Below, in pieces: positions 10,827 to 15,530 of a stretch of DNA of 64,000 bases (its first letter is position 1; each line of letters opens with the position of its first letter). Below the pieces are notes generated by a model. That model saw only the letters and a list, made by a program, of their open reading frames with translations. It had not been told where the DNA came from and did not search any database. The position numbers were made by a program, and so were the translations under genes. The stretch comes from Dictyostelium discoideum. Taxonomy: Eukaryota. The DNA is taken from assembly GCA_000004695.1 (NCBI GenBank), contig CM000151.3, positions 4,288,001-4,352,000 on the forward strand. The letters are read 5' to 3'.

Positions 10827-12600
10827 ATGAGGCTTTACTATTATAAATTAACAATTTTAATTTTCACAATTATTATGATTACACTTTCAACTTTTTTAAT
10901 AATAGCTTTAAATAATAATAATAATAAAAATAATTATAATAAAAATGATGATAATATTAAAAATATGGTTTCAAAAAAGAGTATAGATTTAATTACTCCA
11001 ATAAATAAATTGGTGATTGTTGAAAAAGATGTAGTAAAAGAAGTAATAAAAGAAGTCTGTAATAATAATTTAATTAATAATAATTTAATAAATAATAATT
11101 TAATTAGTAATAATAATAATAATAATAATAATAATAATAATAATAATAATAATAATAATAATAATAATAATAATAATAATAATAATAATAATAATAATAA
11201 TAATAATAATAATAATAATAATAATAATAATAATAATAATAATAATGATGATGATGATAATAATAATAATGATGATGATAATAATAGTGAAATTAAGAAA
11301 AATAATAATTTGAGAGAAAAAGATAATTTATATGGATTTAAAGATAAACAATCAATGATTAATTATTATCTTACATATCAAAATTATTATGATATTGAAG
11401 ATTTTAAAAATGTACAATATGTAAATAAAAGTAAATATGGTTTATCAAATTACCAAATTCCAGAAGTTACAAAAATTATTAGTGATTTTAAACCTACAAT
11501 AAAGGAAACTGAAATGTCAATTGAAAAATTAAATGAGAATTATAATATTGGAATTGATGGTAAACCAAACATTTATTTAGACATTGATAAAGAAAAACAA
11601 TATAATCAAGATATTTATAAATTATCTTTAAAAATCGTTAAATCAAGATTATGGTCTGATTTTTATTCAAATTATTGGAGAGATAAAAACTTTCAAAAAT
11701 ATTCAATTGATAATGGTTTGACTCCATTTGAAGCACCAAAACTTTCTTTACCATTAAATACATCAACACCACTTTTAACAACTCCATATATATTTATACA
11801 TTTACCAAAAGTTGGTGGAAGTTCAATGATTATCCATTTTCAAAAACATTTTAGAGCAGGAGTACACCAACAATGGGCTTATCCAGGTAAGTAATAAAAA
11901 ATAAAAAAAGAAAAAAATACAAAAATACAAACACCTAAACTTCAATTTAATATTAATTAATCATTTTAAAAAAATTACAAAAGATTCAAAAGATATTATA
12001 AAGGTACAAAATGCCCATAATTTAGTATTGGGTCATTTTGGATATGGACTTCATTATGTTTTAAAAGAAGATTCTCAAAAAACTTATAATTATCTTACAA
12101 TGTTAAGAGATCCAGTTGATAGAGTTATAAGTCATTACTTTTATCATAAATCAACTTCATTCGATGAAGAACATATCCCTGCTCGTGATAATAACCTTGA
12201 ACAGTGGTTAGAAATATCACCTCGAGGTACAAATGAAATGACTAGACATTTATCAGGTATTACTGTAATTGAAGAGTTTTTACCAACTAATGAAACATTT
12301 AATATGGCAATGTACAATTTAAGAAAAATGAAATTCGTTGGAATTACTGAAAGATTTGAAGAAACATTAGCACTCCTTAAATTTTATACAGGTTTTGATA
12401 ATCCTGTTGTTTCTGATAAACAGAATGTTGGCCATTTAAAGCCATATGGTATTACACCTGAAATAATTCAAAAAATTAAAGAAAAAAATTGGATGGATAT
12501 TTTATTATATGAAGAAGCTTTAAAAATGTTTGAAAGACAAATCAATATAGTTGGTAGAGTTAATTTTGAAAATCAATTAAATAAAATATTAAAAAAATAA
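10827..12600 (+). CDS. Type II membrane sulfotransferase (Sulfotransfer_2 / HS-O-sulfotransferase-like), tandem paralog 1. join(10827..11886, 11984..12600).
   Basis: Features are an N-terminal signal-anchor TM (LTILIFTIIMITLSTFLIIAL), a poly-N stem, a 5'-PSB PAPS-binding motif IFIHLPKVGGSSM at the end of exon 1, and a 3'-PB motif LRDPVDRVISHYFY in exon 2, with a conserved C-terminal NWMDILLYEEALKMFERQ. The intron has a GTAAGT donor and an aag| acceptor and is phase-consistent. Confidence 0.75.
11105..11250 (+). repeat. (AAT)n coding microsatellite giving a poly-Asn tract of about 45 residues in the stem of sulfotransferase 1.
   Basis: Perfect aat repeats in frame within exon 1, typical of Dictyostelium coding N-runs. 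Confidence 0.9.
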
Positions 12601-13385
12601 AATCAATTGTATGTAAAAATAAATAAAATAATAATAAAATAATAATTAAGTATAAAATAATAATCAAAATTTTGGTAAATAAAAATTAAAAAAAAAAAAA
12701 AAATTTTAAAATAAATAATTTCAAATCATAAAAATAATCAATTAATAACTATATTTTGTTTCCCAGTCCTTATTTTTCAAGAAAACAAAAAAAATAAAAA
12801 AAAAAGTTTTTGTAAATTTCTTCCAAAGATATTTTTTTTTTATTTTTTTTTTTAGTATTTTCATTATGATAATGAAGAGTTTTGCTACGCAAACATGCAC
12901 GATTCTAAGAATTAAAAAAAAAAAAAACACGAAAAATCTAAAAAAAAAAACAAAAATGTTAAAAAATCTAAAAAAAGAAATTTTGATGGGATGGTTTGTT
13001 TGTTCTTACCAATGGGTAATTTGATTTTTATTTATTTATTTATTTATTTATTTTTTTATTTAATTGAAAAAAAAAAATCAAAAAGAAATTGGTAAATTTT
13101 GGGCAATTCCCAAATTTTTAATCATTCTCTTTTGTTAAACCACATTCAAATTTCAGACCACTTTTTTTTATTTAATTTATTTTTATTTATTTATTTATTT
13201 ATTTTTTTTATTTGTTTATATATCATACTGTTGTTAACATTAATCAATTTGGAATTTATGTTCTCTTTAAATTTTTTTTTTTTTTTTTTTTTTTTTGATA
13301 TAAAATTTGTGAATATATAATTAGTCCCAAGTTAAAAAATTAAAAAAATAAAACCAAATCAATAGAAAACAAAATTTTAAAAGTG

Positions 13386-15530
13386 ATGAGATTACAATTT
13401 TTCAAGATTTTAATTTTAATATTTGTGTCATCAATTGTGGTTTTATCATCATTTTTTTTAATTTCTTTAGACGATACTACATTTAAAAATAAAAATGATA
13501 ATATAATACCCATTAAACCAACTACACCTCCGGTCACTATCTCAACAAAAAGCAGTGATTTATTTACTCCTAAAAATAAAGTGGTTGTTTTAGAAAGGGA
13601 AATTATTAAAGAAGTAATAAAAGAAGTGTGTAATAATAATAAAATTGAATTAGTACCAAACTCCAGTGAACAATTAACAAATAATAATAATAATAATAAT
13701 AATAATAATAATAATAATAATAGTTTAAATATTAATAGTAATAAAAATTTAAACAATATTAGTAATAATAATAATAATAATTATTTAAATAGTAATAATA
13801 GTATTAATAGTAACAGCAATAGTAAAAGCAATAGTAATAGTAATAGTAACAATAATAATTATAATAATGATAATACCAATAATTATAATAATTTGAATGT
13901 AGAAGATAAATTGTATGGATTTAAAGATAAACAATCAATGATTAGTTATTTCCTTTCATATCAATATTATTATTATTTAGAAGAAAATAATTATCAACAT
14001 ATAAATAAAACTAATTATGATTTATCAAAATACCAATTCCCAAAATTAGTAAAAATACAAAGTGATTTCAGACCAACAATAGATGAAACAAAAAAAAATA
14101 TTGAAAAACTTAGGGAAGAATATTATATATCACAAATAAAACAAAATTTATCTGTTGTTGAAAATAATAAAATTATTAATAATAATAATACTAATAATAA
14201 TAATAGTAGTAATAGTAATAATAATAATAATAATAATAATAATAATAATAATAATAATAATAATATTAATAATAATATTAAAATTGAAAATAAAAATAAT
14301 AATATTTTAGCAAATGGAGAAAAAAATAATAATGGTTTTAAAACTCTTGATATTGAAATTAATGAAATGTTAAATAGAGGTATAAATGGAATTCAGGATA
14401 TTAAAAGATTACAAGAACTTATTGAAATGAAAGGTGATGGTGGTGATCATTCAAATCATAATTTAGAATCTCCAACTCCCTCACAAATAGTAGATTTCAA
14501 AAATACTAATGAATATTATAAACAATCATTGAAAATAATTAGAGCCAGAATATGGAATGATTTTTATTCAAATTATTGGAGAGATAAAAACTTTATAAAA
14601 TTTTCAATTGATAATGGTTTGGCTCCATTTGAAGCACCAAAACTTTCTTTACCATTAAATACTTCAACACCACTTTTAACAACTCCATATATATTTATAC
14701 ATTTACCAAAAGTTGGTGGAACATCAATGCAATATCATTTTAAAAAACAATTTAATAAAGGTTCAATTCAACAATGGGGTTTTCCAAGTAAGTAATAAAT
14801 TTGATTAAAAAATAAAAAAAAAAAAAAAATAATAATTACTAATTAGTTTTAATTTAATTTATCTTTTATTCTTTTAATCTTTTATTCTTTTGTATAAAAC
14901 TAATAAGATTCAAAAGAGATTATAGATGTACAAAATGCCGAAAGTGTTATTTTGGGTCATTTTGGATATGGACTTCATTATGTTTTAAAAGAAGATTCTC
15001 AAAAAACTTATAATTATCTTACAATGTTAAGAGATCCAGTTGATAGAGTTATAAGTCATTACTTTTATCATAAATCAACTTCATTCGATGAAGAACATAT
15101 CCCTGCTCGTGATAATAACCTTGAACAGTGGTTAGAAATATCACCTCGAGGTACAAATGAAATGACTAGACATTTATCAGGTATTACTGTAATTGAAGAG
15201 TTTTTACCAACTAATGAAACATTTAATATGGCAATGTATCATTTACGTTCAATGAAATTCGTTGGAATTACAGAAAGATTTGAAGAAACATTAGCACTCC
15301 TTAAATTTTATATAGGTCTTGATGATCCTGTTGTTTCTGATAAAAAGAATGTAGCTCGTACCAAACCAAAGCCATCTGATGTTTCACCTGCAACTATTGA
15401 AAAAATTAAAGAAAAAAATTGGATGGATATTTTATTATATGAAGAAGCTTTAAAAATGTTTGAAAGACAAATCAATATCGTTGGTAGAGTTAATTTTGAA
15501 AATCAATTAAATAAAATATTAAAAAAATAA
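13386..15530 (+). CDS. Type II membrane sulfotransferase, tandem paralog 2. join(13386..14787, 14908..15530).
   Basis: Same architecture as paralog 1: TM anchor, N/S-rich stem, YIFIHLPKVGGTSM, and exon 2 starting ...ILGHFGYGLHYVLKEDSQKTYNYLTMLRDPVDRVISHYFYHK. Exon 2 is nucleotide-identical to paralog 1 over about 300 bp. Confidence 0.75.

What the first reader, a model, noticed from the sequence alone, without database searches (positions are those of the whole stretch)
12028..15530. Mosaic identical tracts between sulfotransferase paralogs 1 and 2 indicate recent gene conversion
Exon 2 of paralog 1 (about 12035-12335) and exon 2 of paralog 2 (about 14958-15258) are nucleotide-for-nucleotide identical for about 300 bp. 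They diverge over about 150 bp (...NLRKMKF...GHLKPYGITPEII vs ...HLRSMKF...ARTKPKPSDVSPATI). They become identical again, except for 1 nt, over the last about 130 bp. The 3' ends of exon 1 also share perfect runs of up to 57 nt (tcaacaccacttttaacaactccatatatatttatacatttaccaaaagttggtgga). Meanwhile the stems and introns are unrelated. This patchwork is the signature of conversion tracts between tandem paralogs rather than uniform divergence.
Basis: seen in the sequence. Interest (0 to 1): 0.55.

Follow-up and report, generated by a model that had tools for sequence, protein, structure and literature searches.

The report
Gene conversion between tandem sulfotransferase genes
Two neighbouring sulfotransferase genes of the amoeba Dictyostelium discoideum have repeatedly overwritten parts of each other, most recently a 287-base patch, while short gene-specific blocks stayed distinct; this is a clean but ordinary case of a well-known process.

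Summary
P1 12028-12314 equals P2 14952-15238 exactly (287 nt). It is followed by a divergent block (25 substitutions and a 6-nt indel), then 131 nt with one mismatch. Exon 1 holds exact runs of 37, 40 and 58 nt. The 287-nt run spans 102 consecutive sites that vary among the window's four paralogs (0 of 5000 permutations reach it; analytic bound about 1e-12). Silent-site divergence between P1 and P2 is 0 there and 0.18-0.34 in the divergent blocks.

The window is D. discoideum AX4. It holds four tandem two-exon Sulfotransfer_2 genes, and the same array sits at the syntenic locus in five other Dictyostelium genomes. Trees disagree between adjacent segments. Between the tracts, sequences group by gene (P1 79%, P2 93% bootstrap). 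Inside the tract, P1 and P2 group by genome (AX4 99%, D. citrinum 100%, D. firmibasis 100%).

So the cause is recurrent interlocus gene conversion. The latest AX4 event copied P1 into P2. Six amino-acid positions flanking the tract stayed gene-specific in all six genomes.

This is a new example of a known process, of modest interest.

The parts
10827..12600 (+). Paralog P1: two-exon sulfotransferase gene (exon 1 10827-11886, intron 11887-11983, exon 2 11984-12600). Donor of the latest conversion.
   Evidence: The spliced ORF is 558 codons with a GTAAGT...AG intron. The catalytic domain passes Pfam PF03567 (28.0 bits against a cutoff of 22).
13386..15530 (+). Paralog P2: two-exon sulfotransferase gene (exon 1 13386-14787, intron 14788-14907, exon 2 14908-15530). 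Acceptor of the latest conversion.
   Evidence: The spliced ORF is 674 codons. PF03567 scores 33.1 bits.
12028..12314 (+). Tract c, P1 copy (residues L102-Y197 of the catalytic domain: the GHF/GLH histidine motifs and the 3'-PB motif LRDPVDRVIS).
   Evidence: It matches 14952-15238 exactly over 287 nt. There are 0 fixed gene-specific sites and 35 species-concordant sites. AX4_P1 groups with AX4_P2 at 99% bootstrap.
14952..15238 (+). Tract c, P2 copy: the overwritten stretch.
   Evidence: It carries P1-type alleles at 13 of 16 sites where D1_P1 and D1_P2 differ, and at 16 of 20 for Cf. It has 7 differences to D1_P1 or D2_P1 against 16-17 to D1_P2 or D2_P2.
12470..12600 (+). Tract e, P1 copy (3' end of the CDS including the stop codon); equals P2 15400-15530 apart from 1 mismatch.
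   Evidence: Coordinates. P1 and P2 cluster by genome in AX4 (72%), D1 (80%) and Cf (88%).
15400..15530 (+). Tract e, P2 copy.
11657..11820 (+). Tract a, P1 copy (exon 1 up to the 5'-PSB loop PKVGG); equals P2 14558-14721 with 5 mismatches. An older homogenised tract.
   Evidence: Coordinates. It has 0 fixed gene-specific and 16 species-concordant sites. By-genome clustering: Fir 100%, Cit 70%, Cf 66%. AX4_P1 groups with D1_P1 at 92%, so there has been no post-split event in AX4 here.
14558..14721 (+). Tract a, P2 copy.
11821..12027 (+). Island b, P1 copy (end of exon 1, intron, first 44 nt of exon 2; domain residues 65-101, between the PSB loop and the catalytic-His motif). Gene-specific. The P2 counterpart is 14722-14951.
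   Evidence: P1 and P2 differ at 32-33 sites in five genomes and 27 in Fir. There are 8 fixed gene-specific nucleotide sites. Residues S65T, Q72K, H74Q, N99S and L100V are fixed in all six genomes. The tree is by gene.
12315..12469 (+). Island d, P1 copy (domain residues 198-249). The P2 counterpart is 15239-15399. It contains the fixed N198H difference and a flexible loop.
   Evidence: P1 and P2 differ at 18-28 sites in all genomes. Sub-block 12315-12351 has 5 fixed gene-specific sites in 37 nt. N198H is fixed in six genomes. pLDDT is below 50 at residues 231-238.
16114..18109 (+). Paralog P3 (exon 1 16114-17260, exon 2 17487-18109): context and outgroup. Not involved in the AX4 events.
18433..19943 (+). 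Paralog P4 (exon 1 18433-19258, exon 2 19327-19943), which is DDB_G0274515 of D. discoideum AX4: context and outgroup.
   Evidence: The model is identical to P0021.

Best explanation
P1 and P2 are old, adjacent, same-orientation members of a four-gene Golgi-type sulfotransferase array in D. discoideum AX4. They undergo recurrent non-allelic (interlocus) gene conversion.

The most recent event in the AX4 lineage copied a patch of exactly 287 nt from P1 (12028-12314) into P2 (14952-15238), 2,924 nt downstream. It left both flanks of P2 untouched. Older events homogenised the end of exon 1 (tract a) and the 3' end of the CDS (tract e). Independent events did the same in the D. citrinum, D. firmibasis and D. 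cf. discoideum lineages.

Inferred mechanism: a break or gap in one copy is repaired by homologous recombination, using the paralog on the same chromatid or the sister chromatid as template (synthesis-dependent strand annealing, no crossover).

The tracts are flanked by two islands that have resisted homogenisation since before the six genomes diverged: island b (domain residues 65-101 plus the unalignable intron) and island d (residues 198-249). The likely reasons are that conversions crossing them are selected against because of gene-specific function, and that their divergence impedes heteroduplex extension.

Shown here: a non-reciprocal patch with retained flanks, recurrence, donor polarity, and old gene-specific islands under purifying selection. 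Inferred: the repair pathway, and selection as the cause of the boundaries.
For: 1. Run length. The run covers 102 consecutive polymorphic sites (0 of 5000 permutations, maximum 44), or 149 sites when conditioning on 20 sequences (0 of 2000). Analytic bounds are about 1e-12.

2. Silent sites. P1-P2 dS is 0 in tract c (the single synonymous difference tabulated is the boundary site 12027, outside the tract), 0.05 in e, 0.13 in a, 0.34 in b and 0.18 in d. Other paralog pairs have dS of 0.44-0.55 in tract c, so that stretch is not constrained at silent sites.

3. The duplication is old. The syntenic arrangement of OSBP, four sulfotransferase genes and Pex19 occurs in five other genomes, and the best matches follow the order P1-P4 everywhere.

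4. Topological conflict.
- Block b: P1 monophyletic 79%, P2 93%, AX4_P1 with D1_P1 90%, AX4_P2 with D1_P2 92%.
- Tract c: AX4_P1 with AX4_P2 99%, Cit 100%, Fir 100%, and (AX4_P1, AX4_P2, D1_P1) 98%.

5. Site classes. Tract c has 0 fixed gene-specific and 35 species-concordant sites. Block b has 8 and 3. Sub-block d1 has 5 and 4.

6. Genome-private substitutions shared by both paralogs, against those private to one paralog.
- Tract c: Cit 11 against 8, Fir 24 against 8.
- Island b: Cit 1 against 10, Fir 3 against 9.
- Three AX4-specific derived bases (12157, 12214, 12225) are present in both AX4 copies.

7. Polarity. AX4 carries the P1 state at 13 of 16 sites (D1 as reference, p=0.02) and at 16 of 20 (Cf, p=0.01). 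There are 7 differences to D1_P1 or D2_P1 against 16-17 to D1_P2 or D2_P2.

8. Age. 0 differences in 287 nt gives a 95% upper bound of 1.05%. The conversion-free P3 and P4 differ between AX4 and D1 by 3.5% and 2.1% in the same columns.

9. Islands. Orthologs have dN/dS of 0.2-0.3, while the P1-P2 contrast has 0.5-1.0. Six amino-acid positions are fixed and different in all six genomes, all in islands b and d.
Against: - No independent assembly or read data for AX4 could be obtained. The very last event therefore rests on the reference sequence alone.
- The per-genome run test is not significant in D1 (117 of 2000).
- The segment trees are neighbour-joining trees on 126-287 sites from six genomes.
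- Polarity rests on 16-20 sites.
- Sequence data cannot separate conversion from a double crossover.
- Sequence data cannot separate selection from a pure homology barrier as the cause of the stable boundaries. However, the 3' boundary is only 6 mismatches in 12 nt followed by about 95% identity, which is a weak physical barrier.
Confidence: 0.9

Rival explanations
1. P1 and P2 are a very recent duplication. The divergent blocks reflect rapid, possibly adaptive, divergence after the duplication, and the identical tracts are simply what has not yet diverged.
For: P1 and P2 are each other's closest paralogs nearly everywhere in the window. dN/dS is about 1 between them in the divergent blocks.
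Against: P1 and P2 are separate genes at the same positions in all six genomes. The divergent blocks are orthologously conserved: 32-33 P1-P2 differences in block b in five genomes (27 in Fir), with only 0-3 differences between AX4 and D1 orthologs per 45 nt. Block b trees group by gene. dS of 0.27-0.49 in the islands cannot be recent.
Confidence: 0.02
2. The identity reflects purifying selection and extreme A/T codon bias on a catalytic core, not copying.
For: Tract c holds the invariant catalytic-His and 3'-PB residues. Another block (12490-12564) is 92-97% identical among all four paralogs, consistent with codon bias on an invariant peptide.
Against: In tract c, P1-P3, P1-P4, P2-P3 and P2-P4 have dS of 0.44-0.55 and dN of 0.27-0.31. 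AX4 differs from D. firmibasis P1 at 54 of 287 sites there. 35 sites change between genomes yet stay identical between the paralogs within each genome.
Confidence: 0.02
3. The 287-nt identity in AX4 is an assembly or consensus artefact, with reads of one paralog placed in the other. Real AX4 P2 resembles D1_P2 and D2_P2 there.
For: The AX4 reference could not be cross-checked against an independent assembly. AX4 is the only one of the six genomes with zero differences in the tract.
Against: The tract is short and flanked within 1-2 nt by dense paralog-specific differences on both sides. Any read spanning it would therefore be anchored in unique sequence. Five other independent assemblies show the same segment-restricted homogenisation. 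Tract e and tract a show graded, non-zero similarity, as expected for real events of different ages.
Confidence: 0.05
4. The patches arose by reciprocal exchange (unequal or double crossover between misaligned sister chromatids) rather than by non-reciprocal conversion.
For: The genes are direct repeats 2.9 kb apart, a good substrate for unequal exchange. Sequence from a single haplotype cannot show reciprocity.
Against: A single unequal crossover would delete or duplicate a gene and leave one chimeric junction. Here gene number and order are constant in six genomes, and each patch has two junctions. The donor P1 stays P1-like while P2 changed, which is the non-reciprocal pattern.
Confidence: 0.05

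Closest known systems
Interlocus (ectopic, non-allelic) gene conversion and concerted evolution of tandem duplicates. Textbook examples recalled from my own knowledge: primate fetal globin genes HBG1/HBG2, red/green opsin genes, RHD/RHCE.
   Same: Adjacent same-orientation paralogs. Short tracts (hundreds of nt) of identity flanked by old divergence. Paralogs cluster by species inside tracts and by gene outside. Events are non-reciprocal. Some blocks are shielded from homogenisation.
   Different: The host is a haploid social amoeba with about 78% A+T, and the genes are uncharacterised sulfotransferases. The boundaries of the main tract have been stable across six genomes, out to dS of about 0.5. 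No report of conversion at this locus was found. Nothing in the mechanism appears new.
Heparan-sulfate 6-O- and 2-O-sulfotransferases (PDB 5T03, 3F5F/4NDZ); Pfam Sulfotransfer_2 (PF03567).
   Same: The family profile hits 5T03 at E=4e-14 and 3F5F at 3e-7, with aligned 5'-PSB (FLHIpKtGG) and 3'-PB (LRDPvdRviS) motifs. The predicted fold's best PDB match is 5T03 (TM 0.53), followed only by other PAPS sulfotransferases. All four genes pass the Pfam cutoff.
   Different: Identity to the solved enzymes is only about 17%. The acceptor substrate is unknown. Long poly-Asn or poly-Gln stems occur in P1, P2 and P3. No activity data exist.
Kil1, described as the only characterised Dictyostelium sulfotransferase (PMC3534706).
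   Same: Same organism and the same broad enzyme class, according to the paper.
   Different: No Kil1 sequence was available here, so the relationship was not tested. The nearest out-of-array relative found is DDB_G0270564 (about 54% identity), annotated only as a hypothetical protein.

Membership tests
Interlocus gene conversion / concerted evolution | Identical or near-identical fragments between paralogs that are significantly longer than expected from the distribution of variable sites (Sawyer-type test) | tested here: met
   AX4: 102 polymorphic sites in a row, 0 of 5000 permutations. With 20 sequences: AX4 0 of 2000, Cit 0 of 2000, Cf 2 of 2000, Fir 22 of 2000, D1 117 of 2000 (not significant).
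Interlocus gene conversion / concerted evolution | Heterogeneous silent-site divergence along the gene pair that protein constraint does not explain | tested here: met
   P1-P2 dS is 0 (c), 0.05 (e), 0.13 (a), 0.18 (d) and 0.34 (b). Other pairs in tract c have dS of 0.44-0.55.
Interlocus gene conversion / concerted evolution | Phylogenetic incongruence: paralogs group by species inside tracts and by gene outside them | tested here: met
   Tract c: AX4 99%, Cit 100%, Fir 100% by genome. Block b: P1 79% and P2 93% by gene. Site classes and shared private states agree.
Interlocus gene conversion / concerted evolution | Non-reciprocal transfer: the acceptor is changed, the donor is unchanged, and both flanks are retained | tested here: met
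   Polarity is 13:3 and 16:4 towards P1 alleles. Both junctions lie within 1-2 nt of dense gene-specific differences. Gene number and order are constant in six genomes. Reciprocity itself cannot be observed from one haplotype.
Interlocus gene conversion / concerted evolution | Direct observation of templated repair between the copies | not testable with these tools
   This needs an induced-break or mutation-accumulation experiment.
Pfam Sulfotransfer_2 (PF03567), Golgi-type carbohydrate sulfotransferases | Score above the curated Pfam gathering threshold | tested here: met
   P1 28.0, P2 33.1 and P3 25.7 bits (catalytic domains) and P4 30.8 bits, against a cutoff of 22. Full-length P1 with its poly-Asn stem did not reach it.
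Pfam Sulfotransfer_2 (PF03567), Golgi-type carbohydrate sulfotransferases | PAPS-binding motifs 5'-PSB (PKxGG[ST]) and 3'-PB (RDPxxRxxS) | tested here: met
   H58, P60, K61, G64, R128, P130, R133 and S136 are invariant in the family alignment. They align to the corresponding motifs of HS6ST and HS2ST.
Pfam Sulfotransfer_2 (PF03567), Golgi-type carbohydrate sulfotransferases | Sulfotransferase fold | tested here: met
   The AlphaFold model has pLDDT 84 and pTM 0.84. The top Foldseek PDB hits are HS6ST 5T03 (E=1e-5, TM 0.53), then cytosolic SULTs only. The match is moderate in strength.
Pfam Sulfotransfer_2 (PF03567), Golgi-type carbohydrate sulfotransferases | Type II membrane topology (N-terminal signal anchor, stem, lumenal catalytic domain) | not tested
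   A hydrophobic N-terminal stretch (for example P1 residues 8-27, LTILIFTIIMITLSTFLIIA) can be read directly from the translation. No topology predictor was run.
Pfam Sulfotransfer_2 (PF03567), Golgi-type carbohydrate sulfotransferases | Sulfotransferase activity on a defined acceptor | not testable with these tools
   This needs biochemistry.
Kil1-type sulfotransferases of Dictyostelium | Sequence relationship to Kil1 | not tested
Only the literature statement was read.

The most novel reading that the evidence does not exclude
The conversion boundaries are set by selection, not by chance or homology alone. The catalytic core (L102-Y197, plus the PSB loop and the C-terminal helices) is freely shared between P1 and P2. 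Two small islands are kept gene-specific because they determine acceptor specificity: residues 65-101 between the PSB loop and the catalytic His, and N198H with the 225-249 loop. If so, the array is a natural domain-swap experiment that pinpoints specificity determinants of an uncharacterised sulfotransferase family. It also gives a usable estimate of ectopic conversion relative to point mutation in a haploid amoeba.
Probability: 0.4. Interest if true: 0.45.

Novelty: new member of a known kind. Interest (0 to 1): 0.3.

Why it matters
It documents active, recurrent interlocus gene conversion in Dictyostelium with tract ends resolved to the nucleotide. A six-genome comparison dates the events relative to speciation.

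In practice, it warns that trees, dS-based duplication dating and ortholog calls for this array (DDB_G0274515 and its three upstream neighbours) are segment-dependent.

It also nominates six residues as candidate specificity determinants in a sulfotransferase family with no characterised member in this array: S65T, Q72K, H74Q, N99S, L100V and N198H.

It does not reveal a new mechanism.

Tried and rejected
- Independent check of the AX4 reference. DDB_G0274515 and a neighbouring single-exon ORF (21796-23466, minus strand) are 'not on record'. AX4 appears absent from the contig collection, and poly-Asn length variation probably defeats exact-product matching in close strains.
- P1-type and P3-type proteins never appeared in the protein search. 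I therefore recovered the orthologs through the P4 and P2-fragment hits and extracted all copies from the DNA by tblastn.
- An apparent (P1,P4 | P2,P3) cluster at 12437-12454 looked like a third-party donor. With six genomes, only 4 majority-rule sites in the whole alignment support that split, 2 of them in this cluster (12451, 12454), against 36 for (P1,P2 | P3,P4). It is too weak to interpret.
- A single-sequence PDB search gave only chance hits. The profile search was needed.
It was rerun without them.
- The model output carries no coordinates, so the distance of the islands from the active site could not be measured. Only their place in the secondary structure is known.
- GC content of the tracts against the islands shows no obvious GC-biased conversion signal. 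This was not pursued.

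
Full report
WHAT IS THERE

The window is strongly A+T-rich. It carries four tandem, same-strand, two-exon genes with the intron at the same codon:
- P1: 10827-11886 and 11984-12600
- P2: 13386-14787 and 14908-15530
- P3: 16114-17260 and 17487-18109
- P4: 18433-19258 and 19327-19943

My P4 model is identical to DDB_G0274515 of D. discoideum AX4, on an 8.48-Mb record, so the window is AX4. From my own knowledge, that record length fits chromosome 2.

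Each protein has a hydrophobic N-terminus. P1, P2 and P3 have a low-complexity stem (poly-Asn or poly-Gln); P4's stem is short and lacks such runs. Each has a C-terminal domain of about 290 residues. That domain passes Pfam Sulfotransfer_2 in all four genes. A family profile matches heparan-sulfate 6-O- and 2-O-sulfotransferases through the 5'-PSB and 3'-PB PAPS-binding motifs. A confident model (pLDDT 84) has HS6ST as its best fold match, followed only by other sulfotransferases.

CHECKING THE OBSERVATION

- Tract c: P1 12028-12314 = P2 14952-15238, 287 nt, no mismatch.
- Block d: 12315-12469 against 15239-15399, 25 substitutions and a 6-nt insertion in P2.
- Tract e: 12470-12600 = 15400-15530, 131 nt, one mismatch at 12549.
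- Tract a: 11657-11820 = 14558-14721, 5 mismatches in 164 nt, with exact runs of 37, 40 and 58 nt.
- Block b: 65% identity at the exon 1 end and 77% at the exon 2 start.

Two statements need correcting. The stems are not unrelated: 76% identity in the non-repeat part against 52% for shuffled controls (BLAST). The introns are indeed barely above the A+T-rich background.

IS IT MORE THAN CHANCE OR CONSTRAINT?

I conditioned on the 337 sites that vary among the four paralogs. P1 and P2 agree over 102 consecutive sites. The maximum in 5000 permutations was 44, and analytic bounds are about 1e-12.

Silent-site divergence between P1 and P2 is 0 in tract c. The one synonymous difference listed for that segment is the boundary site 12027. 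The other values are 0.05 (e), 0.13 (a), 0.18 (d) and 0.34 (b). In tract c the other paralog pairs have dS of 0.44-0.55. The identity is therefore recent common ancestry of that stretch, not constraint or codon bias.

THE COMPARATIVE TEST

A protein search found annotated relatives in newer Dictyostelium assemblies. Fetching their loci gave the syntenic array (OSBP, four sulfotransferase genes, Pex19 on the opposite strand) in five genomes:
- Two lineages labelled D. discoideum: D1 = L001 and D2 = L005. They are about 91-93% identical to AX4 and 95-97% identical to each other.
- D. cf. discoideum: Cf = L003.
- D. citrinum: Cit = L002.
- D. firmibasis: Fir = L004.

The duplication that made P1 and P2 therefore predates all these splits.

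I extracted all 24 catalytic-domain coding sequences and codon-aligned them. The segments behave oppositely.

In block b, P1 and P2 differ at 32-33 sites in five genomes and 27 in Fir. AX4 and D1 orthologs differ by only 0-3 sites per 45 nt. The tree groups by gene: P1 79%, P2 93%, AX4_P1 with D1_P1 90%, AX4_P2 with D1_P2 92%.

In tract c the tree groups by genome: AX4 99%, Cit 100%, Fir 100%. There are 0 fixed gene-specific sites but 35 sites that vary between genomes while staying identical between the two paralogs of every genome. Genome-private substitutions are mostly shared by both paralogs: Cit 11 shared against 8 single, Fir 24 against 8. In island b the figures are 1 against 10 and 3 against 9.

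Tract e also groups by genome: AX4 72%, D1 80%, Cf 88%. So does tract a: Fir 100%, Cit 70%, Cf 66%.

Run tests are significant in AX4, Cit, Cf and Fir, but not in D1.

This is concerted evolution by recurrent interlocus gene conversion.

THE LATEST AX4 EVENT

Both AX4 copies of tract c are closer to D1_P1 and D2_P1 (7 differences) than to D1_P2 and D2_P2 (16-17 differences). At sites where the reference genome's paralogs differ, AX4 carries the P1 state 13:3 (D1) and 16:4 (Cf). The clade (AX4_P1, AX4_P2, D1_P1) has 98% support. Three AX4-specific derived bases are present in both copies.

So P1 was the donor and P2 the acceptor, after AX4 split from the D1/D2 lineage.

Zero differences in 287 nt bounds the post-conversion divergence at 1.05% (95%). 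The conversion-free P3 and P4 differ between AX4 and D1 by 3.5% and 2.1% in the same columns.

An earlier P1-to-P2 transfer in the common ancestor of AX4, D1 and D2 is suggested by the site table. At sites 12175-12199, D1_P2 carries the P1-type haplotype of AX4, D1 and Cf_P1. Cf_P2 instead keeps the state seen in both paralogs of Cit and Fir (encoding 'VARNNTF' in Cf_P2). D2_P2 matches D1_P2 at nearly all of these sites.

THE ISLANDS

Six amino-acid positions are fixed within P1, fixed within P2, and different between them in all six genomes: S65T, Q72K, H74Q, N99S and L100V in island b, and N198H at the start of island d. No such position lies in tracts a, c or e.

Island b spans the rest of the PSB helix, a strand and a helix, up to the strand that leads into the invariant GHF...GLH histidine motif. 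Island d includes a low-confidence loop at residues 231-238.

Within each orthologous lineage the islands evolve with dN/dS of 0.2-0.3, no faster than the tracts. The P1-P2 contrast in the islands has dN/dS of 0.5-1.0.

The 3' boundary of tract c is a cluster of only 6 mismatches in 12 nt, followed by about 95% identity. No lineage has lost N198H.

I read this as selection against conversions that erase gene-specific residues, helped on the 5' side by the non-homologous intron. That reading is inference. A pure homology-barrier model is not excluded.

MECHANISM

Shown:
- A non-reciprocal patch with both flanks retained.
- Direct repeats 2,924 nt apart.
- Recurrence in several lineages.
- Tracts of roughly 130-290 nt.

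Inferred from established knowledge of homologous recombination: a lesion in one copy is repaired by strand invasion into the paralog on the same or the sister chromatid (vegetative cells are haploid). Synthesis-dependent strand annealing follows, without crossover, and heteroduplex correction completes the repair.

RIVALS

- Recent duplication with fast divergence is excluded by the orthologous arrays and the by-gene tree in block b.
- Constraint or codon bias is excluded by the silent-site data and the species-concordant sites.
- An assembly artefact cannot be excluded for the last AX4 event, because no independent AX4 data could be reached. It is unlikely given the short tract, the dense unique flanks, and the same phenomenon in five other assemblies.
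- Reciprocal exchange is disfavoured by constant gene number and by the polarity.

NOVELTY

Full-text searches found no report of conversion at this locus or in these genes. Kil1 is described as the only characterised Dictyostelium sulfotransferase. The phenomenon itself is textbook. I rate this as a new member of a known kind, with modest interest. Its main added value is the conserved tract boundaries, which nominate candidate specificity residues.

Noticed in passing
window 19900-19945 (P4 3' end): AX4 P4 (DDB_G0274515) has a 1-nt insertion (the C in CAATTAACAAAAAAT) relative to L001. It ends early at ...TKNYRQ*, whereas the P4 orthologs of the five other genomes read on (KKIIDNSPKI...) for 20-25 more residues. 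This is either a lineage-specific truncation or a reference error (L005 from the translation).
   Followed up: partly
window 15355-15370 (P2): AX4 P2 has a private 6-nt insertion giving ARTKPKPSD. The P2 orthologs have ARTKPSG or similar.
   Followed up: partly
L001 and L005 (whole loci): Two assemblies labelled 'Dictyostelium discoideum' (GCA_054859355.1 and GCA_054859385.1) are only about 91-93% identical to AX4 across this 12-kb locus (ortholog dS 0.02-0.13). They are 95-97% identical to each other. From my own knowledge, that is far more than usual within-species diversity, which suggests cryptic species or mislabelling.
   Followed up: partly
L003 9620-9672 (Cf_P3 3' end): In D. cf. discoideum the last 48 nt of P3 match that genome's P1 and P2 (46 of 48) better than P3 orthologs (40 of 48). 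The protein ends ...NQLNKILKK like P1 and P2. This is a probable conversion involving P3.
   Followed up: partly
L004, the stretch of P2 and P3 aligned to window 12285-12345: In D. firmibasis, P2 and P3 share an unusually long concordant run (1 of 2000 permutations). Fir_P3 reads NMAMYHLRSMKF...FEETLAL like P2. Conversion is therefore not limited to the P1/P2 pair.
   Followed up: partly
window 12490-12564 and the equivalent stretches of P2, P3 and P4: The NWMDILLYEEALKMFERQI block is 92-97% identical at the nucleotide level among all four paralogs and nearly invariant across six genomes. It is probably an invariant peptide combined with the single preferred A/T-rich codon per residue, but exchange among all four copies is not excluded.
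   Followed up: no
window 12437-12454: A small cluster of sites groups P1 with P4 (GITP) and P2 with P3 (VSP), and the grouping is conserved across genomes. In the whole alignment only 4 majority-rule sites support this split, 2 of them in this cluster (12451, 12454), so it is too weak to interpret. It could be an ancient exchange between the neighbours P2 and P3, or convergence.
   Followed up: partly
window 11105-11250, 13680-13720, 14210-14260, 17290-17440: Long (AAT)n runs encode poly-Asn in the stems of P1 and P2 and fill most of the P3 intron. P3 also has a (CAA)n poly-Gln stem at 16687-16790. These repeats dominate any naive repeat or BLAST output for the region.
   Followed up: no
protein database behaviour: P1-type and P3-type proteins, which have long homopolymer runs, were not returned by the protein search, although P4-type proteins and a poly-Asn-free fragment of a P2 ortholog were. 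Exact-product look-ups for AX4 proteins also fail. Absence from these tools is therefore not evidence of absence.
   Followed up: no
window 6000-8000, 33000-34000, 38000-42000: These stretches have markedly higher G+C (0.32-0.39) than the window average of about 0.2. They are presumably long exons of other genes and were not examined.
   Followed up: no
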